NCBI GenBank assembly: GCA_902615025.1
Contig: CACMNV010000004.1
Span: 9,242 to 73,241 of the forward strand
Direction of reading: 5' to 3'
DNA: 64,000 bases
Source: an uncultured SAR116 cluster alpha proteobacterium
GTDB taxonomy: Bacteria; Pseudomonadota; Alphaproteobacteria; Puniceispirillales; Marisalimonadaceae
In this document: piece by piece, positions 1-19,281 of the stretch
Layout of the letters: each line of letters starts with the position of its first letter
How positions within the stretch are numbered: the stretch's first letter is position 1
Translations under genes and position numbers: made by a program
The notes under the pieces: model-generated
The model's database searches: none
What the model was told of the DNA's origin: nothing
Seen by the model: only the letters and a program-made list of their open reading frames with translations

Positions 1-1112
1 TCACCAATTGCTAACAAAGGCGCATCTCTATAATATCTTTCGATATTATATTCTGGCGAATATCCGAAACCTCCATGAATTCTCATAGCTTCAGTTGAAT
101 TAAATAAAGCTGTTTCTGTAGCATATAGTTTTGCCATTCCAGCTTGCAAATCAGATCTTTGTCCACTGTCATATGCTATAGCCGCTTGTTCTGTTAGTAA
201 TCTTGAGGCTTCTAATCTAGTTGCCATTTCTGCTAACTTAATTTGAATTGATTGGTGATTTGAAATTGGTTTTCCAAATGTTTTTCTAATTTTAGAATAT
301 TCTATAGAATCATCCAATGCGGCCTTTGCAAGTCCAACCCCTCTTGCTGCAACATTGATTCTTCCTAATTCTAAACCTGATAATATTTGCTGCAGACCTC
401 TGCCTTCTTCAGTACCGATTAAATTTTCTAATGGTATTTCAACATCTTTAAATTGAACTTCTCCTGTATCAATACCTCTATAGCCTAGTTTCTTTAGTTT
501 TCTTGGAATGTAACCTTGATCTTTATGAACTAATAATAAACTCATTCCTTTATGAGGTGGTGAAATTTCATTATTCGTCTTAACCAATACTGCTAAAACA
601 TCTCCTTGGACTGAATTTGTTATCCATGTTTTAGTCCCATTAATTTTATACTTCGTATTATCTTTAGTTGCTTTTGTTTTTATTGATTGTAAATCTGTTC
701 CACAATCTGGTTCTGTTAAAGCAATACCTCCTCTTAATTCTCCTGTTGCAAATTTAGGCAGATAAAAATTTTTCATTTCATCGGTGCCAAACTTTTCTAC
801 AGCAGCACACATAATTAAATGAGAATTAAAAATACCAGATACTGACATCCAAACAGATGAAACATTTTCTACAATTTTAGAATAAGTAACAGCAGATAAA
901 CCTAATCCACCATAATCTTCAGATATAGTTGCTCCAAAAAGACCCAGTTCAGCCATTTTGTCAGCTATGTCTTGAGGATATTTATCCTCAGATTCAAATT
1001 CTTTAACATAAGGTTTAACATCTTTTTCTAAAAACTTATCTATGCTACTAAGAATAAGTTTATCATTTTCAGAAGTGTCCAAATTTATTTTTGCTAGTTT
1101 CTGATCGTCCAT
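1..1112 (-). CDS. acyl-CoA dehydrogenase (partial; C-terminal end runs off the left edge)
   Basis: Absent from the ORF track because there is no stop in the window. Manual minus-strand translation from ATG 1112-1110 gives MDDQKLAKINLDTSENDKLILSSIDKFLEKDVKPYVKEFESEDKYPQDIADKMAELGLFGATISEDYGGLGLS...GGIALTEPDCGTDLQSIKTKA...INGTKTWITN. The frame stays open to position 3 (...RYYRDAPLLAIG). These are typical ACAD motifs. Confidence 0.85.
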   Translation of the reverse strand, partial: MDDQKLAKINLDTSENDKLILSSIDKFLEKDVKPYVKEFESEDKYPQDIADKMAELGLFGATISEDYGGLGLSAVTYSKIVENVSSVWMSVSGIFNSHLIMCAAVEKFGTDEMKNFYLPKFATGELRGGIALTEPDCGTDLQSIKTKATKDNTKYKINGTKTWITNSVQGDVLAVLVKTNNEISPPHKGMSLLLVHKDQGYIPRKLKKLGYRGIDTGEVQFKDVEIPLENLIGTEEGRGLQQILSGLELGRINVAARGVGLAKAALDDSIEYSKIRKTFGKPISNHQSIQIKLAEMATRLEASRLLTEQAAIAYDSGQRSDLQAGMAKLYATETALFNSTEAMRIHGGFGYSPEYNIERYYRDAPLLAIG

Positions 1113-1132
1113 TTAGTTTCTCTCTTTCTTAT

Positions 1133-2515
1133 TTAATTACTTAACTCAAATAATGAATCTATGCTGTTCGCATTATCTAGTTTAAGCATAAAATTTTTAA
1201 GTTCATCAGATTTTTCTGTTTTTAAGTATGGTTCTACAAGACCGTCAAATTTCTCAATAAACTCATCTTGGGTCATAAAATTTTCTGGATCCCCTTTTGG
1301 AATTTTTACAAATCTTTCATGCTCTTTACCATTAACTTTAATTTTAACATTCGCACTCATATATTCTGGGCAACATTCTTCAGCCTTTTTGTCGTGAGCA
1401 GTTTTTATTCTTTTACATAAAGATAGAGTTTCATTATCAGTTAAACTATTTTTATAATCATCCCATACAAAACTTCCGTTTTTTGCAGCTATAGCTGCAC
1501 AAAAAGGCATTGAAAATTGTCCATCAACTATATTTTTAGGATTTCTTTTTTCTTCTAAAGGAACACCGATAATATTTAATGCTGTATTTGATAATCCAAT
1601 TTCAACATCTTCTAGCTCTTTAAAATTAAAACCTATTTCTTCTTTAAGTTCTAACAATCCGTCTATTGCTGCATGACTGTATCTACATGATGGGTAGGGC
1701 TTTACACCTAAATTAAGAGTTTCAAAATTTTCACCTAAAGCATTTAAGGCTTTTTTAGAATCTCCACCAGAAACAAAAGAATTTAAATATCCCCATTTAC
1801 CCTCAAAAGCTTGTTGTGGACCTTTAAAACCCTCTAAAGCTAAAACAGCACATTTTAATCCATTTTGGGCAGCTTGACCAACATGTGATCTTTTTGTCCA
1901 AGATCCATCGTTTAAAAATTCCATTGAACCCGATGACTGACTTAAGGCAATACCAAAGGCTGAAATAAATTGATTTTTATTTAATCCTAAAATATGACCA
2001 GTTGCTGCAACAGCCCCAAAAATACCACAAGTGGCAGTTGGATGAAATCCTCTATTATAATGCTTAGATGCTCCACCTGCCAACCCAAGTCTTATTTGAA
2101 TTTCATAACCTATAACACAAGCTGTAATTAATTGTTGTCCTGAACAGTTTTTCATTTGTGCAGCTGAAAGAGCAGCAGATAAAATTGGTGCACTTGAATG
2201 AAGAGAAGCTTCAGCATGAGTATCATCAAAATCTAGAGAGTGTGCTAAAGTACCATTAATTAAAGCAGCAGCAGACGGTGCATAATTATTTTTATCTGAA
2301 AAAACTTTACAATTACCATTATCCAAATCTAATGTTTGAATTGCTTTTATCAAACTTTCTGTTGATTCAGCATCATGCCTTGCTCTGATAATTATTCCAA
2401 CAGTATCTAAAATAAGTAGCTTAGTTCTTTCAACTACATCTTTAGGTAATTTTTCAAATTTAATGTTTTCACAAAATTCAGCTAATTTTTCTGTTAATTT
2501 TTCCATATCTCTCAA
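1133..2515 (-). CDS. MmgE/PrpD (2-methylcitrate dehydratase) family protein, paralog 1
   Basis: 460 aa, full-length PrpD-family layout (AHSLDFDDTH, GFHPTATCGIFGA, KPYPSCRYSH). Lies 20 nt upstream of the ACAD gene on the same strand. Confidence 0.85.
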   Translation of the reverse strand: MRDMEKLTEKLAEFCENIKFEKLPKDVVERTKLLILDTVGIIIRARHDAESTESLIKAIQTLDLDNGNCKVFSDKNNYAPSAAALINGTLAHSLDFDDTHAEASLHSSAPILSAALSAAQMKNCSGQQLITACVIGYEIQIRLGLAGGASKHYNRGFHPTATCGIFGAVAATGHILGLNKNQFISAFGIALSQSSGSMEFLNDGSWTKRSHVGQAAQNGLKCAVLALEGFKGPQQAFEGKWGYLNSFVSGGDSKKALNALGENFETLNLGVKPYPSCRYSHAAIDGLLELKEEIGFNFKELEDVEIGLSNTALNIIGVPLEEKRNPKNIVDGQFSMPFCAAIAAKNGSFVWDDYKNSLTDNETLSLCKRIKTAHDKKAEECCPEYMSANVKIKVNGKEHERFVKIPKGDPENFMTQDEFIEKFDGLVEPYLKTEKSDELKNFMLKLDNANSIDSLFELSN

Positions 2516-2587
2516 CTTGTATTTATTTCAGTTAAGTTATAATGTTATTATTTATTAATTTTTTTTCAATTTATTTAATTTTTTTTT

Positions 2588-3865
2588 ATGACAGAACCAT
2601 TTGAATTAACTGCTACAAAAGCTCTTGAATTAATTGATAAAAATAAACTTTCATATTTAGAATGGATTGAAAGTTGTTTAGAAAGAATAAAAACAAGAGA
2701 ACCTTTTATTAAAGCCTTTTCCTACATTGATTATACGAGACCAATCGAATTAGCAAAAAAATGTGATCAAATAAAAAAGAAAAATTTTGGAATACCATTT
2801 GCTGCAAAAGACATTATTGATATTGAGGGTATGCCGACACAGATGGGCACACCTTTTTATTCAGAAAATATACCAAAAAGAGATGCTGGAAGTGTCGCAA
2901 TCGCTAAACACTATGGCTGTATTCCTATTGGCAAGACAGTGACAACTGAACTGGGTCACAGACACCCTGGCCCAACTGTTAATCCTCATAATTATGAACA
3001 TACCCCAGGTGGATCTAGCTCTGGTTCAGCTGCAGCAGTAGCAGAAAACATGGTACCTATTGCTTTTGGAACCCAAACAACTGGTTCTGTTATAAGACCT
3101 GCAGCTTATTGTGGAGTTATAGGCTATAAGCCAACTTATGGAGATTTTGATAAATCAGGAATTTTACCAAACTCTCCATCTATAGATACTTTAGGTCTTA
3201 TGGCTAGATCGATAGAAGATATACTTAGTATGAGAAATATTTTGATAGAAGAAGAATGTTTATTAAATGAAAATTTAAATATTAATGATATTAGGTTTGC
3301 GTTCGTTAAAACTCCTTACTGGGATAAAATAGATGACGACTCTAAAGTAAATCTAGAAAATTTTATTTCTAATCTGATAGAATTGAACGTTAATGTAGAA
3401 GAAATATATTTAAATAATTTAATTTTAAAGTCTAGTGAAATACATAAAAAAATAAGTGGATTTGAATTTAAAAGATCTATTTCCGCCGAACGTTTTCACC
3501 ACTATAATGAACTAAGTGATATCCTAAGAAATGGAAGGCTTAGTGACGGTGAAAATATGTCATTAAGTGATTACCATTATTTATTTGATCATCTTGAAAA
3601 ACATAAACATATGATTAATGACAAGATATCTTCTTATGACTGTATAATATCACCAAGTGCTCTAGGTGAAGCACTAAGTGGTTTAGAATATACAGGCTCA
3701 CCAGTGTTAAATACGACTTGGACTTTATTAGGATTACCATCAATAACACTACCAATGTTTAAAAGCAAAAATAATTTACCAATAGGTTGTCAATTTATTG
3801 CAAAGAAGGCTGAAGATAATAAACTTTTAAGTATTTCAAAAAAAATACTCTTAGAATTTAGCTAG
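2588..3865 (+). CDS. amidase-signature family amidase
   Basis: 425 aa. Has FAAKDIID (catalytic Lys context) and the GGSSSGSAAAVA Ser-cisSer-Lys signature. Divergent from PrpD paralog 1. Confidence 0.85.
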   Translation: MTEPFELTATKALELIDKNKLSYLEWIESCLERIKTREPFIKAFSYIDYTRPIELAKKCDQIKKKNFGIPFAAKDIIDIEGMPTQMGTPFYSENIPKRDAGSVAIAKHYGCIPIGKTVTTELGHRHPGPTVNPHNYEHTPGGSSSGSAAAVAENMVPIAFGTQTTGSVIRPAAYCGVIGYKPTYGDFDKSGILPNSPSIDTLGLMARSIEDILSMRNILIEEECLLNENLNINDIRFAFVKTPYWDKIDDDSKVNLENFISNLIELNVNVEEIYLNNLILKSSEIHKKISGFEFKRSISAERFHHYNELSDILRNGRLSDGENMSLSDYHYLFDHLEKHKHMINDKISSYDCIISPSALGEALSGLEYTGSPVLNTTWTLLGLPSITLPMFKSKNNLPIGCQFIAKKAEDNKLLSISKKILLEFS

Positions 3866-5145
3866 CCAAAGTGAGAAGTTATTAATAATGAAGGTAAAGT
3901 AAGAGCTAAAGCAGGAAATAAAAGTACTATTATTAAAACAACTGTATCTGATATACAAAATGGGAATGAACCCCTAATCACAGTCGTTACAGGTAATTTT
4001 GTGACTCCACTTACAGCAAATAAATTAAGTCCAACAGGTGGAATTACACTTCCGATTTCTATACATAAAGCTGTTAAAATTCCAAGGTGAACAGGATCAA
4101 CTCCAAGTGCTAATGCAACGGGGAAATAAATAGGTACTGTTAAAACTAAAATTGCAACACCTGTTAAAAACATAGATAAAAATAGCAAAGAACCCATTAA
4201 AGCAAACAAAAATCCAAGCCTTGATAAACCTAACGTACCAGCCCATTCAGCTATCATCTGAGGCCATCCCATATTAGCAAGATAAAACTGGAATATGCCT
4301 ACACATCCTAACAAAAAGAAAACTACAGCTGTTAAATTCATAGTCCTTACTGTCGTTGGCATTAATTCTTTTAAAAAAGTCTTTCTTTTAAAAACCAGAC
4401 CATAAAATAATGCGTAACTGGCAGCAGCGGCACCTGCTTCTGTTGGAGTAAATACTCCTCCATAAAGTCCACCTAAAATAATAACTGGCATCAACAAAGC
4501 TGGCCAAGCATCTTTAAATGAAATCCAAACCTCGCATAAGTCAAATTTTCCTCGAGGTAATTTTATAAATAGTGAAACGCTAATGATTATAACTGCATCA
4601 CTTATTGCTAACATTATGCCAGGCACAATGCCTGCAAAAAATAAATCAATAATTGATATCTCTGTTATAACACCGAACAAAATAAGAGTGATGCTTGGTG
4701 GTATTAATAAAGCTATCCCGCCAGCTGAGGCAATTACACCAGCTGCCATCCATTTGGGATAACCTCTTTTTACAAGCTCCGGATATGCAATAACACTCAT
4801 TGCTGCAGCCATAGCTGTTGAAGAACCTGATATTGCCCCAAATAAAACTGCTGCTAAAAGAGTTGCATATGCGAAACCACCTGGAACCCAGCCAACTAAA
4901 GAATCAGCAAATCTAAACAAACCTGCAACAAGGCCTGTTCTTTCCATTAAAAAACCAGCATAAATAAAAAAAGGTATTGCTACTAAAGTATATTTAGTTA
5001 GAAAGCTAAAAAAAGCTTCGAATAGAGTACTGTAAGTAAGAAAATCATCAAATAGTACACCAATTGCAGTAGCACCAGCTAATGAAATTCCAATAGGAAC
5101 TCCAGCAAATAAAAGCATGAATAACGTACTACCTAAACTCCACAT
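3862..5145 (-). CDS. TRAP transporter large permease (DctM family)
   Basis: 427 aa polytopic membrane protein with DctM-like segments (FGAISGSSTA, LLIPPSI). Follows DctQ and DctP genes. Confidence 0.9.
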   Translation of the reverse strand: MWSLGSTLFMLLFAGVPIGISLAGATAIGVLFDDFLTYSTLFEAFFSFLTKYTLVAIPFFIYAGFLMERTGLVAGLFRFADSLVGWVPGGFAYATLLAAVLFGAISGSSTAMAAAMSVIAYPELVKRGYPKWMAAGVIASAGGIALLIPPSITLILFGVITEISIIDLFFAGIVPGIMLAISDAVIIISVSLFIKLPRGKFDLCEVWISFKDAWPALLMPVIILGGLYGGVFTPTEAGAAAASYALFYGLVFKRKTFLKELMPTTVRTMNLTAVVFFLLGCVGIFQFYLANMGWPQMIAEWAGTLGLSRLGFLFALMGSLLFLSMFLTGVAILVLTVPIYFPVALALGVDPVHLGILTALCIEIGSVIPPVGLNLFAVSGVTKLPVTTVIRGSFPFCISDTVVLIIVLLFPALALTLPSLLITSHFG

Positions 5146-5158
5146 AACAATTATCTAT

Positions 5159-5710
5159 CTAAACATCCGTTGATAATTCAACTTTTTCAGTGAAATGATC
5201 ACCCTTAATATAACTATGAATATCTTCAATTATTTGTAAAAAAGCCACGAGTGACATTAAACCTAAGCCTATTGCTAAACAAGTATGAAACGGCCACATA
5301 TAAAAAAATAAACTTTCTGACAATTCACTTATTTTAATTGAATAGTGTATAGTAGATATAGCTGTATAAGTTAATGAAGCACAAAAAATACAAACTGTAG
5401 TTGAAACAAAGATTTTAGCAAATCCAATTAATTTGAAAAACTTGTAAGCACTCAACAATTGAAGTACAGCACTCATGACTAAATGCCCTCTTTTAATTTG
5501 TGTTACACAAATGAAAAAAGCAACTGAACACATTGTAGCATAGATAACTGCATCCTGACCCCACTCAAATACAACACCCAAAATATATCTTCTAAAAATT
5601 TCAGCTAAAGCGAATAAGGTTACACCTATCATCAACAGAGCTGACAAAGTCCCTAGGATCTTTTCGATCCAGTGCTTAATCAATTCAGAAATTTGATAAA
5701 ATATTTTCAT
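5159..5710 (-). CDS. TRAP transporter small permease (DctQ family)
   Basis: 183 aa with four predicted TM helices. Positioned between the binding-protein and DctM genes. Confidence 0.75.
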   Translation of the reverse strand: MKIFYQISELIKHWIEKILGTLSALLMIGVTLFALAEIFRRYILGVVFEWGQDAVIYATMCSVAFFICVTQIKRGHLVMSAVLQLLSAYKFFKLIGFAKIFVSTTVCIFCASLTYTAISTIHYSIKISELSESLFFYMWPFHTCLAIGLGLMSLVAFLQIIEDIHSYIKGDHFTEKVELSTDV

Positions 5711-5756
5711 GCTAATTTAAAAAAGGCCTAAATAAAATTTAGGCCTTTTGATAAAG

Positions 5757-6926
5757 TTACTTACGTGACTTCTTTTTAAATAAAGCTGTTCCTTTTGCAT
5801 ATTTAGCAAAGTCTGCAGCAAAAGCAGTACAATCAGTCTTTTCTAATGGATCTGATCCTAATGGATTTGCTTTAACTAAAGCCGCAGCCTCTGATGTAAA
5901 TTGGTCCACCATTTTATCACCAGTTCCATCAACTTTTGTTTTAATCCAGTTATTTGTAGCACCACCTTCAGCCTTTTGTAAAACACCAGCTTCTGATGGG
6001 TTCATTACGTAAATACCAGGCTTAGACTTATCTGTTACTTTATACTTATCAACAAGTCTCTTATCATTACAAAAGTTTATTGCCTTTTGATATGGAATAA
6101 AGTCATTAACAATAATGTCAGCTAATGCTTTTTGTTGAGCTTTAGATAGTGTTGACCACCATTTGTTTGAAGCACCAATCCAATAGTAATCACCGACGAT
6201 ACCGTTGATGCCAGCTACAGTAAAATATGGAGCTTGCTCTTTTGTTGCGTTAAATCCACCTAAACTTGTTAATAATCCATCAATTACTCCAGTTTGAAGT
6301 GCTGGTGGAACATCTCCAAATGACATTGTAGTTGGATTAGCACCTAATGATCCAAGTAATGCATTTTCAGCAGGTCCCATACTTCTGATTTTTTTACCTT
6401 TGAAGTCAGCTGGAACAAGCATTCTACTTTTAACAGCTCCAGCACCCATATACATACTTAAGTGACCAGAACCAAATATTGTAATTCCATGTTTATCATT
6501 AAATACCTTCTTTAACTGAGCAAAAGTTTTTGTACCATCTAGTCCATTGATAGCACCAGGAGTAGTTAATTTACCAGCTCCTACAATTGTATTTGCTAAA
6601 GGCTCAACTGAAGAAGTTTTACCAAACTGTCCAGTCATCATTTCTAAATTACCTTTTGTTAAGGCCTGTGTACCTTTTGGTACATTATAAAGTGATTTAG
6701 CCCAGTAAATTTGTACTTTACTTCCTGGAATTTTCTTTTCAACTTGCTCTGCAAAAAACATTTCTGCAATAGCTGCAGGATGTGGCGGACCAGAGTGGTC
6801 TGATGCCCATCTCATTTTAATTGGTTCAACTTTACCGTGTCCATCTGCGATAGCATTTGTTGAACCTAATGAAAATAAAGCTGCAATTGTAGCAACTGCT
6901 GTCATTAATTTCTTATCTAATCTCAT
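5757..6926 (-). CDS. TRAP transporter substrate-binding protein (DctP family, C-terminally extended)
   Basis: 389 aa with a signal peptide (..LGSTNAIA). DctP-like core including the carboxylate-binding Arg context KKIRSMGP. Strong SD (GGAGGAAAATTC-ATG). About 50 aa longer than a typical DctP. Confidence 0.75.
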   Translation of the reverse strand: MRLDKKLMTAVATIAALFSLGSTNAIADGHGKVEPIKMRWASDHSGPPHPAAIAEMFFAEQVEKKIPGSKVQIYWAKSLYNVPKGTQALTKGNLEMMTGQFGKTSSVEPLANTIVGAGKLTTPGAINGLDGTKTFAQLKKVFNDKHGITIFGSGHLSMYMGAGAVKSRMLVPADFKGKKIRSMGPAENALLGSLGANPTTMSFGDVPPALQTGVIDGLLTSLGGFNATKEQAPYFTVAGINGIVGDYYWIGASNKWWSTLSKAQQKALADIIVNDFIPYQKAINFCNDKRLVDKYKVTDKSKPGIYVMNPSEAGVLQKAEGGATNNWIKTKVDGTGDKMVDQFTSEAAALVKANPLGSDPLEKTDCTAFAADFAKYAKGTALFKKKSRK

Positions 6927-7047
6927 GAATTTTCCTCCGAAACATAGATTTTGTTAAATAATTATTTAGACACTAAACATATAATACTATGTAATCAAAG
7001 GTTTTTTAGTTCATATGTTATATAAAAAATTAATAAAATAAATTGAA

Positions 7048-8250
7048 CTATATAATATCTTTATTTTTCAATAAGTTAATGTCTTCAATTGAGTAGCCTA
7101 ACTTAGTAAATATCTCTTCATTATGTTCACCTAATTCAGGTGCTGTTTTGTCAACATGATTTTCAGTGTCGAATCTTATTGGTGTTTTTAGTAAGCTTAT
7201 GTTTTTTTTATTTTTAGTCGTTATAGTTTCAATGTTATTTCTTTCTTTAACAAATTCATTTTGAAGTGAAGACTTAACATCTAAGATTGGTGCAGCTGGT
7301 ACATTACCTGCAAAAATTTTTAGCCATTCTGACGTAGACTTTTTACTTAATTCTTTATCTAAAATTTCTGTTATTTGACTTCTATTCTCCTGTCTCAGTT
7401 TAAAATTTAAAAACCTTTTATCTTCTCCCAAGTCTTTTCTATCTATATATTCACAAAGAATAGGCCAAAAACTCTCTTTATTGCACATTAAATAAATCCA
7501 ACCATCAGAAGTTTTATACAGTTGACATGGAACTAAAACGGGATGAGCAGATCTATCTAATCTTTCTGGTTCGTAATCTGAATTTAATGCCCAGGCAGCT
7601 ACATAACTTTGATTAAACATGGCTGTATCAAAAAGACTTACATCAATATCTCTTCCAATTCCTGTATCTCTTGCGGATAAAACACCACTCACTAAACTAA
7701 ATGCCATAGTTAATCCTGCCATGTAATCTACAATAGACAGACCAAATCTTGCCGGAGGAGCATCAGGTTCACCAGTCAATGAAAAGTACCCTGCCTCAGC
7801 TTGCATTAAATAATCATATCCTGGCCAATTCTTTCTTGGCCCTTCTCTACCATATGCAGAACAATGAGCTGCAACAATTTTTTTATTATATTGTTTTAAT
7901 TGGTCAAATGTAATTCCTAACTTTTCAGGAACATCACCTCTAAGATTATTGCAAACTGCATCACTTGTTTTTACTAACTTACCTAAAATTTCCTTCCCTT
8001 CACCAGATAAAATATTAAGAGTTATACTTTTTTTATTTCTGTTTAATGCTTGAAAGAAGATACTTGATGCTGAATTTCTTTCTTCATCAATGAAATAAGG
8101 ACCAAGTGCTCTTAAGTAGTCTCCATCCGTTCCCGCAGGTTCTATTTTTATTACCTCTGCACCTAAATCCGATAAATACTGAGAACCAAATGGACCCGCA
8201 CCATATTGCTCAAATGCTAAAACTTTTAATCCCTCTAGAGGCAAGCTCAT
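7048..8250 (-). CDS. family III CoA-transferase (CaiB/BaiF/Ict-like)
   Basis: 400 aa. N-terminus LEGLKVLAFEQYGAGPFGSQYLSDLGAEVIKIEP is the canonical family III signature. Confidence 0.9.
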   Translation of the reverse strand: MSLPLEGLKVLAFEQYGAGPFGSQYLSDLGAEVIKIEPAGTDGDYLRALGPYFIDEERNSASSIFFQALNRNKKSITLNILSGEGKEILGKLVKTSDAVCNNLRGDVPEKLGITFDQLKQYNKKIVAAHCSAYGREGPRKNWPGYDYLMQAEAGYFSLTGEPDAPPARFGLSIVDYMAGLTMAFSLVSGVLSARDTGIGRDIDVSLFDTAMFNQSYVAAWALNSDYEPERLDRSAHPVLVPCQLYKTSDGWIYLMCNKESFWPILCEYIDRKDLGEDKRFLNFKLRQENRSQITEILDKELSKKSTSEWLKIFAGNVPAAPILDVKSSLQNEFVKERNNIETITTKNKKNISLLKTPIRFDTENHVDKTAPELGEHNEEIFTKLGYSIEDINLLKNKDII

Positions 8251-8267
8251 TTTTTAAAACTTTCTAA

Positions 8268-8801
8268 TTATTTTGTATTTGAAATAATTTCATCAACAAC
8301 ACTATGACCTCTTTTAGCAACTAAAAAAGATCTTACCATATCCATCACAATCAAATTATCTTGATTTTTTCCAATATGTCTAACTCTTACTATTCCTTGG
8401 GTTGGTCTTGATTTAGACTCTCTTTTATCAAGTACCTCTGTTTCAGAATATAGAGTATCTCCAACAAATACTGGTGCGGGTAATTTTATTTCTTCCCAAC
8501 CTAAATTTGCTATTGCTTTCTGGCTAGTACCACTCACGCACATGCCTGTAACCAGTGATAAGGTAAATGCAGAATTTACAAGATAACGTTTGAATTCTGT
8601 TTTAGACGCATAATTAGTATCAAAATGCACAGGATGTGTGTTCATTGTTAAATTTGTAAACCAAATATTATCTGTTTCTGTAATGGTTCGACCTGGCCAA
8701 TGTTCGTAAATGTCACCTACATTGAAATCTTCAAAATATCTGCCTGGATCTTCTCGATATCTATTAGGCCCAACCTTTTTTATTCCAAATAACTCACTCA
8801 T
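8268..8801 (-). CDS. MaoC-like (R)-specific enoyl-CoA hydratase, single hot-dog domain
   Basis: 177 aa with a hot-dog fold pattern (NTHPVHFD...). Zero-nt junction with the upstream lyase gene. Confidence 0.8.
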   Translation of the reverse strand: MSELFGIKKVGPNRYREDPGRYFEDFNVGDIYEHWPGRTITETDNIWFTNLTMNTHPVHFDTNYASKTEFKRYLVNSAFTLSLVTGMCVSGTSQKAIANLGWEEIKLPAPVFVGDTLYSETEVLDKRESKSRPTQGIVRVRHIGKNQDNLIVMDMVRSFLVAKRGHSVVDEIISNTK

Positions 8802-9614
8802 TTAAACCTCTCTCTCAATAATGGACTTAGCTCTTGCCAAAACAGGAGCATCAACCATTTTACCTTCAAAATTAAAAGCGCCAGTACCTGCAGTTTCAGA
8901 TGCTTTTAAAACTCCTTTTGCCCAAATCAATTCTTCATCAGTTGGATTATATGCTCGATGGATAGGTTCAATTTGATCTGGATGAATTGCAAATTTTCCT
9001 TTAAAACCCATTGATTTAATTAGCTTAGTTTCATTAAAACATCCTTCCGCATCACGAAAATCCAACCAAACCCCATCCAAAGCAATAGTGTTGTATAGAG
9101 CTGAGGCATTAACTATTTTACCTCTTGAATAAGCTAGCGAATCTACACTCATATCTCCACCTGTCATAGCTGTAAAGTCAGCAGAACCAAAACCTATTCC
9201 TGAAAAGTTTATACCTTCAACATTCCAAAATTCGATATTAGCAATTCCTTTAGGTGTCTCAATTTGTGGTAGAACTAAAATGTTTGTTCCTAAATCATTT
9301 AAAAAAGATTTACACTCTTTAGCATCTTCAATTTTTGGTATGGCAATAGAATAAGGAAGATTTGGACAATTCTTCAACATTTTAATGTCATCATGATAAT
9401 CATTCGAATCTAAACCATTTATCCTCAGTAAAAATTTCTCTGGTTGATTATTAAAATTGTTTTTTGAAAATTCGATGAAATTTTTACGCCCAAAATCTTT
9501 CTTATCTTTGGCAAGTCCGTCTTCTAAATCAAAAATGACTTTGTCAGAATTTGATGCCAAGGCTTTTGGAACTCTCTCGATTTTATCCAATGGTAAAAAT
9601 AAAATACTCCTCAT
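8802..9614 (-). CDS. HpcH/CitE-like acyl-CoA lyase (citramalyl-/malyl-CoA lyase type)
   Basis: 270 aa. MRSILFLPLDK...SDKVIFDLEDGLA matches the CitE/HpcH N-terminal motif. Confidence 0.85.
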   Translation of the reverse strand: MRSILFLPLDKIERVPKALASNSDKVIFDLEDGLAKDKKDFGRKNFIEFSKNNFNNQPEKFLLRINGLDSNDYHDDIKMLKNCPNLPYSIAIPKIEDAKECKSFLNDLGTNILVLPQIETPKGIANIEFWNVEGINFSGIGFGSADFTAMTGGDMSVDSLAYSRGKIVNASALYNTIALDGVWLDFRDAEGCFNETKLIKSMGFKGKFAIHPDQIEPIHRAYNPTDEELIWAKGVLKASETAGTGAFNFEGKMVDAPVLARAKSIIEREV

Positions 9615-9636
9615 AATTGACTGCTCATTAATTCCT

Positions 9637-10956
9637 TTATTTTAAAAGATTGATAATGTCTTTCGCTCGATTTTTTTCAGGACTTTTAAAAAGATCAAAT
9701 ATTTCATTGGATAGTTTATCAGATAATAAAGAAGAAGATTTAGTTAAAATCTTTTTCTGTAATAATTCATTTTCAATTTTATTATTCAAGTCATGACTGT
9801 TTTTATATATTTCACTACCATCTTTTAATTCAATTAAAGCTTCAGTATTAGTCATTTTATCATTTGGAATGACTTCAACTTTATCACGTGTTTCAACAAT
9901 TTTTTCATTAAAGCAAATTTCATCATTATAACTATCTAGCCTTCCTGTATCAACACCGTGAAGAGACATTGCGGCGGTTAACTTATATGAAAACTTTGCC
10001 TCTAATCCTGTTTTCGGGCTATCAATATTACAAACTTGCAACCAAGAAGGTTGTGTTTGAATTGAAATTTTTTCAATTGAATCTGGATTAAAATTATTTT
10101 TTGTTTTCAATTCGTCCAATGCCTCAAGAAAAGCATGCAAACCATGACAACAAGCATGAAATTTATATTTAATTTCAGGGAATAAAAAATCTTGCCCTAA
10201 AACATTAATTGCTGCCTCAGGCATAGTTTCGTCCCATGCATGTGTCTTCAAAAAACCTTGATTACATTCAATCCCGTTTTCACAACTAACAAAACCTAAC
10301 TTTGACAATTTAGCAGCCTCAATTCCATTTGATGCAGCAATGCCAGCATGAAATGGTTTGCCCATTGTACCAAATTGTGACTTTAAACCTGATGCTCTTG
10401 TTGAAACTATACCAAGTGCATTTTCTATTTGTTTAGCATCTAATTTCAGTAATTTCGATGCAACTAAAGTTGCACCAAAAGCCCCACTGGTAGCTGTTTG
10501 ATGAAAACCTTTGTTATAATGTGAGTAACCAAGGATATGACCTAACCTAGTGGAAATTTCTACACCACACATATAAGCCAACATTATTTCATCAATCGAT
10601 GAGCCTAATTCTTCGCCAAGTGCTAATGCAGTAGGAAAAGCACTAGCCGTTGGATGTCCAGTAAATAAAAAATGAGTGTCGTCATAATCTAGGGCATGAC
10701 CAATAGTTCCATTTACAAAAGCTGCTGATTTAGCTGAAACTTCTTTTCCATTTGAAATTAATCTTGATAGACCTTTAGTTTGTTCTTCATCGATTAATTT
10801 AGTTACAATTTTTGATACTGGCTCTTCTTTTGCTGCATATGCAACACCACACCAATCGATCATTGACATCTTTGAAAAAAATATCATTTCATCATTAAAA
10901 TTTTGTAAGGTAGCCTGTAATACGAAATTACTAAAAATTTTTGTTAAATCTGTCAT
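9637..10956 (-). CDS. MmgE/PrpD family protein, paralog 2
   Basis: 439 aa (GHALDYDDTH, GFHQTATSGAFGA). Embedded in the CoA-ester operon. Confidence 0.85.
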   Translation of the reverse strand: MTDLTKIFSNFVLQATLQNFNDEMIFFSKMSMIDWCGVAYAAKEEPVSKIVTKLIDEEQTKGLSRLISNGKEVSAKSAAFVNGTIGHALDYDDTHFLFTGHPTASAFPTALALGEELGSSIDEIMLAYMCGVEISTRLGHILGYSHYNKGFHQTATSGAFGATLVASKLLKLDAKQIENALGIVSTRASGLKSQFGTMGKPFHAGIAASNGIEAAKLSKLGFVSCENGIECNQGFLKTHAWDETMPEAAINVLGQDFLFPEIKYKFHACCHGLHAFLEALDELKTKNNFNPDSIEKISIQTQPSWLQVCNIDSPKTGLEAKFSYKLTAAMSLHGVDTGRLDSYNDEICFNEKIVETRDKVEVIPNDKMTNTEALIELKDGSEIYKNSHDLNNKIENELLQKKILTKSSSLLSDKLSNEIFDLFKSPEKNRAKDIINLLK

Positions 10957-10967
10957 CTTTTACTCCA

Positions 10968-11819
10968 TTAAAACTTTGCTTCTGCTCTCATAGTCACACC
11001 AAATTCTTTTGTTGCACCCCAACAGCTTACTGAACCATCATCCATTTTATCTACACCAACCATATACTCACTATCTGCAAAAACAGGTGCCATGACTTTA
11101 TGAGTGAATGACTTTACTGGCTTACCCATCAATTTTTCAGCAGCTCTTAATAAATAAGTTGCCTGAAGTGGTCCATGTACAATTAAGCCAGGGTAATTTT
11201 CTTCATTAACTGTGTATGGATGATCATAATGAATTCTATGCCCAACAAATCCAATTGCGGAATATCTAAATAATATAGTTGGATGCATAAAAATTTTTTC
11301 GCTTAAATCTGCTTTCTCAGGTATGTCTTTTGAATAACCTGAGCCACCTCCAGACTTTGAAATATCTCTGTAAACAATATTGTGTTTTTCATTAATAGTT
11401 ACTTCATCATTGACTAAGAAATTATATTCTGCTGTTACAAAACATAAAAGACCAGTTCGTCCTTCTTTAACTTGAATGTCAGCTACAGTTGATTGTTTAA
11501 TAACTTTGTCACCTACTCTGATTGGTTTTAAGACTTTAATTTCACTTCCTGCCCACATTCTTCTTGGCAAAGGAACAGGAGGTAAAAATTCACCTAATGC
11601 TGGATGAGAATCTACACCAAGTTCATCATTTTTAACTAAATTCCACCCTAACATCCAATGTAATCCAGAAGTGACTGGATCTCCATCCTTAGGATTTCCT
11701 ATATCCATATTTAGCGTTGCTCTATATCTTTGTTCAACAATTGGTGTTACATAGTCGGTAACATTATCTATTTTTCCGATCCATTTTCTTAAATGATCAA
11801 TATCAACTTTTGTAGACAT
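10968..11819 (-). CDS. two-domain hot-dog hydratase (itaconyl-CoA / mesaconyl-C4-CoA hydratase family, Ich/Meh-like)
   Basis: 283 aa. RRMWAGSEI in the N-terminal half and GHRIHYDHPYT...GLIVHGPL in the C-terminal half, as I recall for the Ich/Meh/HTD2-type family. First gene of the minus-strand operon. Confidence 0.7.
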   Translation of the reverse strand: MSTKVDIDHLRKWIGKIDNVTDYVTPIVEQRYRATLNMDIGNPKDGDPVTSGLHWMLGWNLVKNDELGVDSHPALGEFLPPVPLPRRMWAGSEIKVLKPIRVGDKVIKQSTVADIQVKEGRTGLLCFVTAEYNFLVNDEVTINEKHNIVYRDISKSGGGSGYSKDIPEKADLSEKIFMHPTILFRYSAIGFVGHRIHYDHPYTVNEENYPGLIVHGPLQATYLLRAAEKLMGKPVKSFTHKVMAPVFADSEYMVGVDKMDDGSVSCWGATKEFGVTMRAEAKF

Positions 11820-12015
11820 AATAATTAAGCCCTATAATTTTAATTAGTGAATTAAAATGATTCTATTAATTAAATCCCAGATTTTGCATTAGATAAAGTT
11901 AAAAATGTAAAAAATAACAAGATTTTAATTTTACTATTTAAAAAAGTATTATTTAATAGAAAATTGATAAAAAAAACTTGAATCTAATTATAAATAATAT
12001 CTTTAGGAGATTTTT

Positions 12016-13563: not shown

Positions 13564-13587
13564 TAGATAAATTATTAATATGATTAA

Positions 13588-13941
13588 ATGCCTATTTTAA
13601 AATTATACAAAGATAAAAATATAGATTGTAAAATGGACCTGGTTTCAATTGAGGATTATCTAATCAAAATGATGAATACAGAATTTAACGCTAGGCTTGA
13701 AAATTGCCAAATAATTTGGATAGCCACAGAAATATTAAAATCTGAGTACAAAATTTATGGTGAATTACTTTTACGTAAAAATGAGAACCGTACAAACTTA
13801 ATAAAAAATAATTTTTTAAATAAAATTGGTAAAAAATTATCAAAAAGTTTTTCTACAAATATTAGGTTAAGATCATTTTCAATTAAAGATGAATTAATTA
13901 ATGCGGCACAGATTAAATTAGGGGAAGATGATGACGGATAA
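13588..13941 (+). CDS. hypothetical protein, possible tautomerase-superfamily member (N-terminal Met-Pro)
   Basis: 117 aa beginning MPILKLY. Its end overlaps the next gene by 14 nt (coupled). The fold assignment is inference only. Confidence 0.5.
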   Translation: MPILKLYKDKNIDCKMDLVSIEDYLIKMMNTEFNARLENCQIIWIATEILKSEYKIYGELLLRKNENRTNLIKNNFLNKIGKKLSKSFSTNIRLRSFSIKDELINAAQIKLGEDDDG

Positions 13942-14737: not shown

Positions 14738-14738
14738 T

Positions 14739-16510: not shown

Positions 16511-16559
16511 TGAACAAAAATTCTGTTACGTTTTATTAAATTAAATATTGGAGATTTAG

Positions 16560-17369: not shown

Positions 17370-17382
17370 AATAGGTCGTAAA

Positions 17383-19117: not shown

Positions 19118-19281
19118 TTTTTCTCCCTGATAATTGTTTTTAATACTAATCATTAATTCATTAATCAATTCGATCAACAAGGATAATTATTGTCAAGAAA
19201 AGAAAATATTTTACGCTACAATTGTATTATTTTTAATATAAATCCAAATGTGTTTTTTTTTCTAATTGTTACTAAAATAAT

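What the first reader, a model, noticed from the sequence alone, without database searches (positions are those of the whole stretch)
1..11819. Ict/Ich/Ccl-type C5-dicarboxylyl-CoA (itaconate/mesaconate-like) catabolic island, expanded with a second hydratase, two PrpD paralogs, an ACAD, an amidase and a TRAP system
A minus-strand run with 0-22 nt gaps reads as follows: two-domain Ich/Meh-like hydratase (10968-11819), PrpD-family protein (9637-10956), CitE/HpcH-type acyl-CoA lyase (8802-9614), single-domain MaoC hydratase (8268-8801), family III CoA-transferase (7048-8250). TRAP dctPQM follows (3862-6926), then a second PrpD plus an acyl-CoA dehydrogenase (1-2515).

A CoA-transferase, an itaconyl-CoA hydratase and a CitE-type (S)-citramalyl-CoA lyase form the established bacterial itaconate degradation trio (Pseudomonas ict/ich/ccl; Yersinia ripABC with a MaoC-type hydratase). 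The same four enzyme families (Mct, Mch, Meh, Mcl) interconvert mesaconyl-, methylmalyl- and citramalyl-CoA in the Chloroflexus 3-hydroxypropionate bi-cycle. As far as I recall, the P. aeruginosa itaconate locus also carries an ACAD, a PrpD-family gene and a TRAP transporter, so this locus looks like a superset.

The locus has both hydratase types, an ACAD (methylsuccinyl-CoA to mesaconyl-CoA type chemistry) and two PrpD paralogs (a family that includes cis-aconitate decarboxylase). This suggests a broader funnel for itaconate, mesaconate, citraconate or methylsuccinate. That is unexpected in such a streamlined genome. The divergently placed amidase hints that an amide derivative may also feed in.
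Basis: partly seen in the sequence, partly recalled or inferred. Interest (0 to 1): 0.62.

Follow-up and report, generated by a model that had tools for sequence, protein, structure and literature searches.

The report
Mosaic marine C5-dicarboxylate catabolic gene island
An abundant marine SAR116-type bacterium carries a gene island that most likely imports and breaks down itaconate-like branched C5 acids, but it is assembled from both known hydratase types plus several enzyme lineages that nobody has characterised, not from a copy of the Pseudomonas pathway.

Summary
The genes are real, sit at the stated coordinates and belong to the stated families. The same order recurs in six near-identical assemblies and, at 56-93% amino-acid identity, in six SAR116/Puniceispirillales species. 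The organism is therefore not Pelagibacterales.

The itaconate/methylsuccinate-type reading holds at family level. It does not hold as "a superset of the P. aeruginosa locus". Only the two-domain hydratase is clearly PaIch-like. The ACAD is not an Mcd orthologue: it is 32% identical to PaMcd and clusters at 100% bootstrap with ACADs that partner RipB-like hydratases. The CoA-transferase lies outside the Ict clade; relatives carry an extra true Ict-clade gene that this genome lacks. The lyase is a lineage of its own, with unresolved placement. The TRAP system is unrelated to IctPQM. The "second hydratase" is the best-conserved member, at 57-64% identity to RipB-named proteins.

Both PrpD paralogues carry the His/Tyr epimerase residue set, not the decarboxylase or dehydratase set. 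Each belongs to a different uncharacterised clade that elsewhere fills the methylsuccinate-isomerase slot of canonical five-gene clusters.

The best reading is a mosaic funnel from branched C5-dicarboxylates to citramalyl-CoA, yielding acetyl-CoA and pyruvate. The substrates are inferred and the amidase role is unknown. This is a new variant of a known kind.

The parts
10968..11819 (-). Two-domain hotdog hydratase of the PaIch (itaconyl-CoA / mesaconyl-C4-CoA hydratase) type; first gene of unit A
   Evidence: Its only PDB relatives are 8khg and 8huc, itaconyl-CoA hydratase, E 2e-48 over the full length. It is 35-37% identical to PaIch, with the FRYSA..F.GHRIHYD.PY and YPGL.VHGPL.AT blocks invariant. 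It is 39-49% identical to the Ich of canonical Mcd-Ict-Ich clusters. JGI names near-identical (about 100%) proteins 3-methylfumaryl-CoA hydratase.
9637..10956 (-). PrpD2: MmgE/PrpD-family protein, predicted two-base epimerase/isomerase acting on a 2-substituted succinate (free acid)
   Evidence: Both Pfam domains are present. The residues at PaMsi positions H88/E91/H102/Y148/H152/K202/K266 read H-D-H-Y-H-K-K. It falls in a 100%-supported clade with PrpDs at 40-45% identity. One of these fills the Msi slot next to Ich in the canonical five-gene cluster of L098.
8802..9614 (-). CitE/HpcH-type acyl-CoA lyase, a lineage restricted to the SAR116 relatives among the sequences compared; inferred (S)-citramalyl-CoA lyase
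   Evidence: Pfam hits HpcH_HpaI and C-C_Bond_Lyase. The best PDB hits are PaCcl (8khl/9nzb), CLYBL, RipC and Rv2498c. It scores 162.9 bits on NCBIfam RipC_Ccl, against 157.7 for genuine PaCcl. No relative above 35% identity was found in plasmids, and its tree placement is unresolved.
8268..8801 (-). Single-domain MaoC hydratase of the RipB type; its start abuts the lyase stop (0-nt gap)
   Evidence: NCBIfam RipB_Ich scores 232.8 bits over the full length, against 70 for the next family, but below the cut-off of 340. It is 57-64% identical to proteins that PGAP names RipB/Ich, and 61% identical to the RipB of a canonical RipC-RipB-RipA cluster, L092.
7048..8250 (-). Family III CoA-transferase, not of the Ict clade; inferred succinyl-CoA:dicarboxylate CoA-transferase
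   Evidence: Pfam CoA_transf_3 scores 352.9 bits. It is 29% identical to PaIct. It forms a 100% clade with its SAR116 orthologues and a Variovorax MaoC-cluster CoA-transferase (40%). That clade lies outside the 97%-supported Ict clade and does not group with E. coli Frc, YfdE or CaiB. The catalytic Asp (S-I-V-D) is conserved.
5757..6926 (-). DctP-type TRAP solute-binding protein; unusually long (389 aa) and divergent
   Evidence: Pfam DctP scores 81 bits. It is 24% identical to IctP. PDB hits score 41 bits or less, and plasmid hits are below 30% identity. It has an N-terminal stretch that looks like a signal peptide (by eye) and keeps the carboxylate-clamping Arg (K-I-R), but only 4 of 9 IctP ligand-site positions match in a weak alignment.
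5159..5710 (-). DctQ small TRAP membrane subunit
   Evidence: Pfam DctQ scores 45.2 bits, above the gathering score.
3862..5145 (-). DctM large TRAP permease
   Evidence: Pfam DctM scores 316 bits, and NCBIfam TIGR00786 scores 351, above its cut-off. It is 40% identical to PA0886-type DctM.
2588..3865 (+). Amidase-signature hydrolase; substrate unknown; syntenic in 5 of the 6 SAR116 relatives
   Evidence: Pfam Amidase scores 213.9 bits. The FAAKD Lys, GGSSSGS cis-Ser and GTQTTGS Ser motifs are intact. It is conserved at the same position at 56-59% identity. Nothing closer than 36% was found elsewhere.
1133..2515 (-). PrpD1: MmgE/PrpD-family protein (public gene calls start at 2506), predicted methylsuccinate-isomerase-like epimerase; first gene of unit B
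   Evidence: It carries the H-D-H-Y-H-K-K set. It falls in a 98% clade with alphaproteobacterial PrpDs (42-47% identity) that sit between Ccl/Ict and Mcd/Ich in canonical clusters. It is 30% identical to PaMsi (212 bits).
1..1112 (-). Acyl-CoA dehydrogenase (370 of 387 aa lie in the window); partner lineage of RipB-type hydratases; inferred methylsuccinyl-CoA-type dehydrogenase
   Evidence: All three ACAD domains are present. It is 32% identical to PaMcd, whereas Mcd orthologues are 59-82%. It is 56-61% identical to ACADs adjacent to RipB-like MaoC in L094 and L095, forming a 100% clade separate from the Mcd clade. Its best PDB hit is 4iv6 'FadE3' at 402 bits. The catalytic Glu of the G-E-G-T motif is present in the full-length copy.

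Best explanation
This is a catabolic island for branched C5-dicarboxylates of the itaconate, mesaconate and methylsuccinate kind. It sits in a SAR116-type marine alphaproteobacterium. It is a mosaic of the two convergent itaconate solutions, not a copy of either.

Proposed steps; all are inferred unless marked.
1. The TRAP system imports the dicarboxylate. That it is a TRAP transporter with a carboxylate-binding Arg is shown; the ligand is inferred.
2. The family III CoA-transferase makes the CoA ester at the expense of succinyl-CoA.
3. The ACAD oxidises the saturated ester (methylsuccinyl-CoA type) to the enoyl-CoA (mesaconyl-C4-CoA type).
4. Two hydratases produce (S)-citramalyl-CoA. The RipB-type enzyme is presumably tuned to itaconyl-CoA isomerisation and hydration. 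The PaIch-type enzyme is presumably tuned to mesaconyl-C4-CoA hydration. This follows the published efficiency ratios of 0.53 versus 0.09.
5. The CitE-type lyase cleaves citramalyl-CoA to acetyl-CoA and pyruvate.
6. PrpD1 and PrpD2 act on the free acids as two-base (His/Tyr) epimerases. They convert the enantiomer the transferase does not accept. Each may serve a different 2-substituted succinate.

The amidase may release such an acid from a monoamide, but nothing tested here supports that beyond synteny.
For: Homology to characterised enzymes. The Ich-type hydratase matches PaIch at E 2e-48. The MaoC is 57-64% identical to RipB-named proteins, including one in a RipC-RipB-RipA cluster. The lyase's best solved relatives are all citramalyl-CoA lyases, and it scores like genuine PaCcl on the RipC_Ccl model.

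Guilt by association. Each divergent member has relatives inside clusters of the same logic.
- The ACAD lineage sits with RipB-like MaoC, a CoA-transferase, a lyase and a PrpD in L094 and L095.
- PrpD1-type proteins sit in Ict/Ccl/Mcd/Ich clusters.
- A PrpD2-type protein sits in the canonical Ict-Mcd-Ccl-PrpD-Ich cluster L098.
- The CoA-transferase lineage sits beside an Ict-clade paralogue in L095.
- Both hydratase types also co-occur in an Acidocella locus, L055.

Catalytic residues are intact in the PrpDs, CoA-transferase, ACAD and amidase.

Published functions of the reference cluster come from PMC12290011, PMC9875883 and PMC12599236. C. necator gives a precedent for several Ict/Ccl/Mcd paralogues with different inducers (PMC13491972).

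Synteny is conserved across SAR116 species. Seawater metatranscriptome contigs span the CoA-transferase/MaoC, MaoC/lyase and lyase/PrpD2 junctions.
Against: No substrate was tested, and every specificity is inferred. The ACAD, CoA-transferase, lyase, TRAP binding protein and both PrpDs lie outside the experimentally characterised clades. Identities to the P. aeruginosa enzymes are only 24-40%. The lyase cannot be placed even relative to E. coli CitE, with bootstraps of 2-12%. This genome lacks the Ict-clade transferase that its relatives have. No paper in the held library links itaconate or methylsuccinate to marine bacterioplankton. The RNA evidence is soft: assembled contigs only, flat depth, and one contig crossing the divergent intergenic region, so DNA carry-over is possible. 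The trees are neighbour-joining with few characterised references.
Confidence: 0.62

Rival explanations
1. The enzyme logic is the same (import, CoA transfer, dehydrogenation, hydration, aldol-type cleavage, with free-acid epimerisation), but the substrate is a different dicarboxylate. Candidates are another 2-substituted succinate or a C5/C6 acid such as glutarate, 3-methylglutarate, ethylsuccinate or 2-hydroxymethylsuccinate. The products would then differ from acetyl-CoA plus pyruvate.
For: All the specificity-determining members lie outside characterised clades. The CoA-transferase's top NCBIfam hit is succinate-glutarate CoA-transferase, and the ACAD also matches a non-decarboxylating glutaryl-CoA dehydrogenase. 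The binding protein shares only 4 of 9 IctP site residues. PMC12290011 notes that the Msi pocket could take larger C3-substituted substrates. From memory, not tested here: the M. tuberculosis CitE-type lyase Rv2498c also cleaves HMG-CoA.
Against: Genuine PaIct and PaMcd give the same NCBIfam hit profiles, so those hits discriminate nothing. The two hydratases are the most specific markers, and both point to itaconyl- or mesaconyl-CoA. Both PrpD clades occur next to true Mcd orthologues at 64-80% identity.
Confidence: 0.2
2. The stretch is not one pathway. Unit A (hydratases, PrpD2, lyase, CoA-transferase, TRAP) is an itaconate-type module. PrpD1-ACAD and the amidase are functionally unrelated neighbours in a general catabolic region.
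For: They are separate transcription units, with the amidase on the other strand. L011 shows the lyase-MaoC-CoA-transferase-TRAP block inverted, so the modules are separable. The surrounding 30 kb is a patchwork of catabolic units: PobA, extradiol dioxygenases, a second TRAP system, and TctCBA with a third PrpD. The amidase has no conserved association outside SAR116.
Against: The ACAD lineage is directly adjacent to RipB-like MaoC, and to a PrpD in L094, in two unrelated genomes. PrpD1-type genes sit inside canonical clusters next to an ACAD. The PrpD1-ACAD-amidase-TRAP order is kept in five SAR116 species.
Confidence: 0.12
3. The genes serve central-carbon interconversion instead of catabolism of an imported acid. 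The route would run mesaconyl-C1-CoA to beta-methylmalyl-CoA to glyoxylate plus propionyl-CoA, as in the ethylmalonyl-CoA pathway, the methylaspartate cycle or the 3-hydroxypropionate bi-cycle.
For: The best solved relatives of the MaoC are beta-methylmalyl-CoA dehydratases (8hgn, 4e3e). Pfam also hits MC_hydratase. CitE-type lyases include Mcl.
Against: The MaoC is single-domain and matches only the N-terminal half of Mch, and RipB_Ich scores 233 bits against 70 for the Mch-type model. The lyase scores 30.7 bits on the malyl-CoA lyase model, and 52-101 bits on solved Mcl structures against 117-127 for PaCcl, CLYBL and RipC. The mesaconyl-CoA isomerase model scores 59 bits against a cut-off of 725. 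A dedicated TRAP importer sits in the same gene run. No crotonyl-CoA carboxylase/reductase or mutase was seen among the genes examined (1-35 kb of the window, plus about 10 kb beyond its left edge).
Confidence: 0.06

Closest known systems
Pseudomonas-type itaconate/methylsuccinate cluster (P. aeruginosa PA0878-PA0886; C. necator E6A55_22580-22600): Ich, Mcd, (Rdo), Msi, Ict, Ccl, IctPQM
   Same: The protein families and the overall logic are the same: a family III CoA-transferase, a two-domain Ich-type hydratase, a CitE-type lyase, an ACAD, a PrpD-family epimerase and a TRAP importer in one neighbourhood. The Ich homology is clear.
   Different: The ACAD, CoA-transferase and TRAP binding protein are not orthologues of Mcd, Ict and IctP. 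The lyase is a separate lineage. There are two PrpDs, neither in the PaMsi clade. There is no VOC/Rdo gene and no LysR regulator. An additional RipB-type hydratase and an amidase are present.
Yersinia/Salmonella-type RipABC itaconate cluster (represented here by Paraburkholderia caribensis L092)
   Same: A RipB-type single-domain MaoC hydratase (61% identical to the L092 RipB) lies immediately next to a CitE-type lyase.
   Different: There is no RipA-type (acetyl-CoA hydrolase/transferase family) CoA-transferase; a family III enzyme takes its place. The lyase is only 27% identical to the L092 lyase. The ACAD, the PrpDs and the Ich-type hydratase are extra.
Uncharacterised 'RipB-type extended' clusters: Pseudosulfitobacter pseudonitzschiae pSMR1-4 (L094) and the Variovorax paradoxus chromid (L095)
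   Same: They share RipB-like MaoC (61-64%) and the same ACAD lineage (56-61%), with family III CoA-transferase(s), a CitE-type lyase, a PrpD in L094, and TRAP or TTT uptake genes. L095 also holds the window's CoA-transferase lineage (40%).
   Different: Those clusters have no Ich-type hydratase. Their lyases are PaCcl-like (42-47%). They include GntR regulators. The L094 PrpD has His in place of the catalytic Tyr. No function has been published for them as far as the held library shows.
MmgE/PrpD two-base epimerases: (S)-(R)-methylsuccinate isomerase (PA0881) and iminodisuccinate epimerase (2HP0)
   Same: PrpD1 and PrpD2 carry all seven residues proposed for substrate binding and His/Tyr two-base catalysis.
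   Different: They are 28-30% identical to PaMsi and form two separate clades. Activity and substrate are untested.

Membership tests
Pseudomonas-type itaconate/methylsuccinate cluster (PA0878-0886) | Ich: two-domain hotdog itaconyl-CoA / mesaconyl-C4-CoA hydratase homologous to PA0878 | tested here: met
   Its only PDB relatives are the PaIch entries, E 2e-48 over the full length. It is 35-37% identical, with the conserved blocks invariant.
Pseudomonas-type itaconate/methylsuccinate cluster (PA0878-0886) | Ict: family III CoA-transferase of the PA0882 clade | tested here: not met
   It is 29% identical to PaIct, against 41-53% for cluster-associated Ict. It falls in a separate 100% clade, outside the 97%-supported Ict clade. 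SAR116 relatives carry a true Ict-clade gene between PrpD2 and the lyase; the window has only a 22-nt gap there.
Pseudomonas-type itaconate/methylsuccinate cluster (PA0878-0886) | Ccl: (S)-citramalyl-CoA lyase of the PA0883 clade | tested here: inconclusive
   PaCcl is the best PDB hit, and the RipC_Ccl score equals that of PaCcl. But it is only 33% identical, against 38-49% for cluster-associated lyases scored against PaCcl, and the deep tree nodes have 2-12% support.
Pseudomonas-type itaconate/methylsuccinate cluster (PA0878-0886) | [quoted passage not shown] | tested here: not met
   It is 32% identical, whereas Mcd orthologues are 59-82%. It falls in a separate 100% clade. Its catalytic-Glu motif G-E-G-T is absent at that position in PaMcd.
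Pseudomonas-type itaconate/methylsuccinate cluster (PA0878-0886) | Msi: PrpD-family protein of the PA0881 clade, adjacent to the ACAD | tested here: not met
   Neither PrpD1 nor PrpD2 falls in the PaMsi clade (91-100% support). Both fall in other clades that occupy the same slot in canonical clusters. PrpD1 is adjacent to an ACAD, but a non-Mcd one.
Pseudomonas-type itaconate/methylsuccinate cluster (PA0878-0886) | IctPQM: TRAP system derived from DctPQM, with a Leu-to-Val change in the pocket | tested here: not met
   The binding protein is 24% identical. Only 4 of 9 site residues match in a weak alignment. PMC12599236 describes IctPQM as a Pseudomonas-lineage duplication.
Yersinia-type RipABC cluster | RipB: single-domain MaoC (R)-specific enoyl-CoA hydratase | tested here: inconclusive
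   RipB_Ich is by far the best NCBIfam model (232.8 bits against 70), and the protein is 57-64% identical to PGAP-named RipB proteins. But the score is below the curated cut-off of 340.
Yersinia-type RipABC cluster | RipA: CoA-transferase of the acetyl-CoA hydrolase/transferase family | tested here: not met
   No such gene lies in the island. The only CoA-transferase there is family III.
Yersinia-type RipABC cluster | RipC: CitE-type itaconate-degradation lyase | tested here: inconclusive
   It scores 162.9 bits against a cut-off of 375, which genuine PaCcl also fails at 157.7. It is 27% identical to the lyase of the RipCBA cluster L092.
MmgE/PrpD two-base epimerase/isomerase (Msi, IDS epimerase) | Seven conserved residues: two His plus an acidic residue and two Lys for the carboxylates, and the catalytic His and Tyr | tested here: met
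   PrpD1 and PrpD2 both read H-D-H-Y-H-K-K. The decarboxylase has Ile at the Tyr position. E. coli PrpD differs at four of the seven positions.
Chloroflexus 3-hydroxypropionate bi-cycle set (Mct, Mch, Meh, Mcl) | Mct-type intramolecular mesaconyl-CoA transferase, two-domain Mch, and Mcl-type lyase | tested here: not met
   The mesacon_CoA_iso model scores 59 bits against a cut-off of 725. The MaoC covers only the N-terminal half of Mch. The Mcl-type model scores 30.7 bits. Only the Meh/Ich-type hydratase is shared.
TRAP transporter (DctPQM type) | Three components P, Q and M, and the conserved ligand-carboxylate Arg in P | tested here: met
   All three Pfam families score above their gathering scores. 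The Arg is kept in the K-I-R motif.
Amidase signature family | Ser-cisSer-Lys catalytic triad within the GGSS signature | tested here: met
   Pfam Amidase scores 213.9 bits. The FAAKD, GGSSSGS and GTQTTGS motifs are present. All NCBIfam equivalogs score below their cut-offs, so the substrate is unknown.

The most novel reading that the evidence does not exclude
The RipB-type hydratase, the FadE3-like ACAD lineage, the non-Ict CoA-transferase lineage and the two non-Msi PrpD clades together form a third evolutionary solution for methylsuccinate/itaconate-type catabolism that has not been recognised so far. In SAR116 it would be coupled, through the syntenic amidase and the divergent TRAP binding protein, to a marine-specific precursor unknown to current biochemistry. 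One candidate is a monoamide or ring-opened imide of a substituted succinate or maleate. Each PrpD paralogue would epimerise a different substrate.
Probability: 0.1. Interest if true: 0.75.

Novelty: new variant of a known kind. Interest (0 to 1): 0.45.

Why it matters
Itaconate and methylsuccinate catabolism has been studied in pathogens and soil saprophytes. Finding a complete-looking, conserved island in one of the most abundant surface-ocean lineages suggests these acids matter in marine dissolved organic carbon too. The exact hydratase protein occurs on 708 contigs and in 877 blocks of the public assembly index, and sequences matching the island are present in many seawater metatranscriptome assemblies. 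No source of these acids in the ocean is known.

The comparison also flags four uncharacterised enzyme lineages that appear to replace Mcd, Ict and Msi: one ACAD lineage, one CoA-transferase lineage and two PrpD clades. Surveys based on the P. aeruginosa sequences would miss them. The published Msi census found very few Alphaproteobacteria. Having both convergent hydratase types in one operon offers a natural test of the proposed split between itaconyl-CoA and mesaconyl-C4-CoA specialisation.

Tried and rejected
- Homologue search with the Ich protein. The top 120 hits were all at least 99% identical marine sequences. This showed abundance but gave no diversity or names. I reached distant loci by aligning the window protein with PaIch and scanning genome contigs.
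- First ACAD comparison. It gave no hit because I mis-set the frame by 2 nt; this was corrected.
- Exact look-up of PrpD1 from the TTG start. It failed because public gene calls use the ATG at 2506.
- Promoter and terminator scan. There were fewer promoter-like sites than in shuffles (47 against 58) and terminators were at chance level, so nothing can be said about transcription units from it.
- NCBIfam as a discriminator for the CoA-transferase, ACAD and lyase. I rejected this after calibration, because the genuine P. aeruginosa enzymes give the same sub-threshold profiles.
- Ligand inference for the TRAP binding protein. PDB sequence search gave 41 bits or less, plasmid hits were below 30%, and the IctP site residues could only be compared in a weak alignment.
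- Lyase phylogeny with E. coli CitE as outgroup: unresolved.
- Literature. No paper links SAR11, SAR116 or bacterioplankton to itaconate or methylsuccinate. No open paper with PaIch or PaCcl catalytic residues was found.
- Idea that the divergent plus-strand operon (TPP enzyme, crotonases, ADSL/CMLE-family lyase, CoA-transferase) belongs to the itaconate pathway, prompted by the C. necator 'second Ich homologue plus ADSL-family' remark in PMC12290011. I set this aside for two reasons. It adjoins a bona fide PobA and extradiol dioxygenases. The TPP gene is missing in the SAR116 relatives.
- The cis-aconitate-decarboxylase reading of the PrpDs. Rejected on the Tyr residue.
- An (R)/(S)-citramalate epimerase role. 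Rejected on chemistry, because C2 of citramalate carries no proton, and on the published lack of such activity in Msi.

Full report
OBSERVATION. Pfam confirms every family assignment:
- an acyl-CoA dehydrogenase cut by the window edge (1-1112, minus strand; 370 of 387 residues);
- an MmgE/PrpD protein (1133-2515; public gene calls start at 2506);
- an amidase-signature protein on the plus strand (2588-3865);
- DctM, DctQ and DctP (3862-6926);
- a family III CoA-transferase (7048-8250);
- a single-domain MaoC hydratase (8268-8801);
- an HpcH/CitE-type lyase (8802-9614);
- a second MmgE/PrpD protein (9637-10956);
- a hotdog-fold protein (10968-11819).

The gaps in the five-gene run are 11, 22, 0 and 17 nt. 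There is a 121-nt gap before dctP. The amidase converges on dctM with a 4-nt overlap and diverges from PrpD1. Contigs that extend beyond the window show that PrpD1-ACAD is a two-gene unit followed by convergent AzlCD and RidA, so the island ends just past the window edge. The same order occurs in six independent assemblies. It also occurs, at 56-93% amino-acid identity, in six species representatives. These are therefore genes under selection, not chance ORFs.

ORGANISM. A scan of one genome per species, using an alignment of the window hydratase with PaIch, returned the closest loci at 73-76% identity. They were SAR116-cluster single-cell genomes, 'alpha proteobacterium SCGC AAA536-G10' and Candidatus Levibacter. 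NCBI taxonomy places Levibacter in Puniceispirillales. No Pelagibacterales genome was among the best 80 loci. The Levibacter chromosome listed is 2.2 Mb. The exact hydratase protein is recorded on 708 contigs and in 877 index blocks, so the organism is very abundant in marine metagenomes.

WHAT IS KNOWN. I retrieved it as L087. The functions are now published:
- Ict, Ich and Ccl degrade itaconate.
- PA0879 is an (RS)-methylsuccinyl-C4-CoA dehydrogenase (Mcd).
- PA0881 is an (S)-(R)-methylsuccinate isomerase (Msi) that acts on the free acid (PMC12290011).
- PA0884-0886 import branched C5-dicarboxylates (PMC9875883). According to PMC12599236 they arose by a dctPQM duplication within a few Pseudomonas species.

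ORTHOLOGY TESTS. Direct comparison with the P. aeruginosa proteins gives only 24-40% identity. The 80 related loci provide the yardstick.
- ACAD. ACADs next to Ich homologues in Alpha- and Betaproteobacteria are 59-82% identical to PaMcd. The window ACAD is 32% identical.
- CoA-transferase. True Ict orthologues are 41-53% identical to PaIct. The window CoA-transferase is 29% identical.
- Lyase. Cluster-associated lyases are 38-49% identical to PaCcl. The window lyase is 33% identical.

Neighbour-joining trees agree with this.
- The ACAD forms a 100%-supported clade with ACADs from Pseudosulfitobacter (61%) and Variovorax (56%), separate from the Mcd clade.
- The CoA-transferase forms a 100% clade with its SAR116 orthologues and a Variovorax enzyme (40%). 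That clade lies outside the 97%-supported Ict clade and does not group with E. coli Frc, YfdE or CaiB.
- The lyase forms a clade containing only the SAR116 sequences, and its deeper position is unresolved even against E. coli CitE.

Calibration showed that NCBIfam cannot settle these cases. Genuine PaCcl scores 157.7 bits on the RipC_Ccl model, against 162.9 for the window lyase. PaIct and PaMcd give the same sub-threshold profiles as the window proteins. The TRAP binding protein is long (389 aa) and very divergent. Only 4 of 9 IctP ligand-site positions are the same in a weak alignment, although the carboxylate-clamping Arg is kept. The VOC/Rdo gene and the LysR regulator of the Pseudomonas locus are absent.

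THE TWO HYDRATASES. The two-domain protein matches only P. aeruginosa itaconyl-CoA hydratase entries among solved structures (E 2e-48, full length), and the most conserved blocks are invariant. The single-domain MaoC is the member closest to anything named. RipB_Ich is its best NCBIfam model by a wide margin (232.8 bits against 70, below the cut-off of 340). It is 57-64% identical to proteins that NCBI's pipeline names RipB/Ich, including one in a canonical RipC-RipB-RipA cluster. Relatives of this MaoC sit next to the window's ACAD lineage in two unrelated genomes:
- a plasmid of a marine, diatom-associated Pseudosulfitobacter: TRAP, Ict-clade CoA-transferase, MaoC, PrpD, ACAD, GntR, lyase;
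- a Variovorax chromid: ACAD, two CoA-transferases, MaoC, GntR, with a lyase nearby.

So there is a 'RipB-type extended' cluster family in which this ACAD takes the place of Mcd. The window island combines it with an Ich-type hydratase. Both hydratase types also lie together in an Acidocella locus (L055). PMC12290011 reports that the ratio of isomerase/hydratase to hydratase efficiency is 0.53 for the Yersinia enzyme and 0.09 for the P. aeruginosa enzyme. This suggests, by inference only, a division of labour between itaconyl-CoA and mesaconyl-C4-CoA.

THE TWO PrpD PARALOGUES. PrpD1 and PrpD2 are 26% identical to each other. Both have all seven residues proposed for carboxylate binding and His/Tyr two-base catalysis in Msi and iminodisuccinate epimerase. 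The cis-aconitate decarboxylase has Ile at the Tyr position, and E. coli PrpD differs at four of the seven positions. The tree resolves three well-supported clades:
- the characterised PaMsi type (91-100%);
- a PrpD1 type (98%), whose other members sit between Ccl/Ict and Mcd/Ich in alphaproteobacterial clusters;
- a PrpD2 type (100%), one member of which fills the Msi slot, next to Ich, in a canonical Ict(47%)-Mcd(72%)-Ccl(45%)-PrpD-Ich cluster on a marine Paracoccaceae plasmid.

Both paralogues are therefore best read as epimerases of 2-substituted succinates, not as decarboxylases or dehydratases. Why there are two is not explained.

DIFFERENCES FROM THE NEAREST RELATIVES. Five of the six SAR116 relatives have the order Ich, PrpD2, an Ict-clade CoA-transferase (41-42% to PaIct), lyase, MaoC, CoA-transferase, DctPQM, amidase (opposite strand), PrpD1. 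The window has only 22 nt where that Ict-clade gene would be. It carries a TPP enzyme next to Ich that the relatives lack. One relative (L011) has the lyase-to-DctM block inverted. No Ict- or Mcd-clade gene occurs elsewhere in the 64-kb window.

EXPRESSION. Many seawater metatranscriptome assemblies hold 42-68% of the sampled words of 7000-11900. Laid contigs cover 7060-20000 and span the CoA-transferase/MaoC, MaoC/lyase and lyase/PrpD2 junctions. But the depth is flat and one contig crosses the divergent Ich/TPP gap, so DNA carry-over cannot be excluded. Consensus promoter and terminator scans were at or below chance.

SURROUNDINGS. The plus-strand operon at 12016-18594 encodes a TPP enzyme, a 117-aa unknown, two crotonases, an ADSL/CMLE-family lyase, a thioesterase and a CoA-transferase. 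It adjoins a bona fide 4-hydroxybenzoate 3-monooxygenase (609 bits, above its cut-off), a second TRAP system, extradiol-dioxygenase-like proteins and another FAD monooxygenase. I read this as a separate aromatic-acid block. A third PrpD paralogue follows a TctCBA transporter at 27836-32191.

INTERPRETATION. The best-supported model (confidence about 0.6) is a mosaic island for branched C5-dicarboxylates. [quoted passage not shown]

What is shown: the families, the intact catalytic residues, the homology of the two hydratases, the clade positions, the recurring gene associations and the synteny. What is inferred: every substrate, the direction of flux and the division of labour.

There are three rivals:
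- the same logic acting on a different dicarboxylate;
- functionally independent neighbouring units;
- a central-carbon role of the beta-methylmalyl-CoA type, which is disfavoured by the single-domain MaoC, the low Mcl and Mct model scores and the in-operon importer.

The amidase has an intact catalytic signature. It is syntenic only within SAR116 and has no relative above 36% identity in the plasmid collection. Its role is open.

VERDICT. This is a new variant of a known kind. Interest is moderate, resting on the organism's abundance, the combination of both convergent hydratase types, and four uncharacterised lineages that appear to stand in for Mcd, Ict and Msi.

Noticed in passing
window 12016-23459: A divergent plus-strand operon encodes a TPP enzyme (PRK07586 type, 698 bits, above its cut-off), a 117-aa protein with no family, two crotonases, an ADSL/CMLE-family lyase, a 4HBT thioesterase and a second family III CoA-transferase. 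It is followed on the minus strand by a gamma-carbonic-anhydrase/PaaY-like protein, a bona fide 4-hydroxybenzoate 3-monooxygenase (609 bits against a cut-off of 538.7) and a second DctPQM. It looks like an aromatic-acid CoA pathway, not part of the C5 island.
   Followed up: partly
window 23572-27749: Two extradiol-dioxygenase-like (glyoxalase/BphC) proteins, an FAD monooxygenase and a TauD/TfdA-family dioxygenase lie here. This is more catabolic genes in the same 30-kb patchwork.
   Followed up: partly
window 27836-32191: A TctC-TctB-TctA tripartite tricarboxylate transporter is followed directly by a third MmgE/PrpD paralogue (30821-32191). It is 22-29% identical to the other PrpDs and has His in place of the catalytic Tyr (H-D-H-H-H-K-K). 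The PrpD of the Pseudosulfitobacter cluster L094 has the same substitution.
   Followed up: partly
L007 12180-13334; L010 7174-8340; L012 12168-13337; window 9615-9636: SAR116 relatives carry an Ict-clade CoA-transferase (41-42% to PaIct) between PrpD2 and the lyase. The window and its six near-identical assemblies have only a 22-nt spacer there. Conversely, the TPP gene at window 12016-13563 is absent from the relatives, where the 117-aa gene abuts Ich.
   Followed up: yes
L011 12190-19989: In one SAR116 single-cell genome the lyase-MaoC-CoA-transferase-DctPQM block is inverted relative to Ich-PrpD2. The ORF at the breakpoint matched both an Ict-like protein and an amidase fragment.
   Followed up: partly
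L014, L015, L021, L030 and about 30 other Bradyrhizobiaceae loci, around 7600-12700: The operon reads LysR | Mcd (64%) - Ict (45%) - Ich - a benzoylformate-decarboxylase-family TPP enzyme (848 bits on PRK07092). No CitE-type lyase lies within the 10-kb flanks. The fate of the hydratase product there is unclear.
   Followed up: partly
L088 11395-12558 versus L087 11853-13013: The window-type ACAD has the usual C-terminal catalytic-Glu motif (A-I-G-E-G-T). PaMcd has no Glu at the corresponding place (…Y-Q-V-A-P-I-S-T-N…), which suggests a different position for the catalytic base in the two lineages.
   Followed up: no
window 36000-58000: G+C falls to 24-27% in several 2-kb bins (40-44 kb, 48-50 kb, 52-54 kb), against 31-35% across the island.
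   Followed up: no
window 11260-12385: A metatranscriptome contig (run X2) crosses the 196-nt divergent intergenic region between Ich and the TPP gene. This means either overlapping transcription or DNA in the RNA libraries.
   Followed up: no
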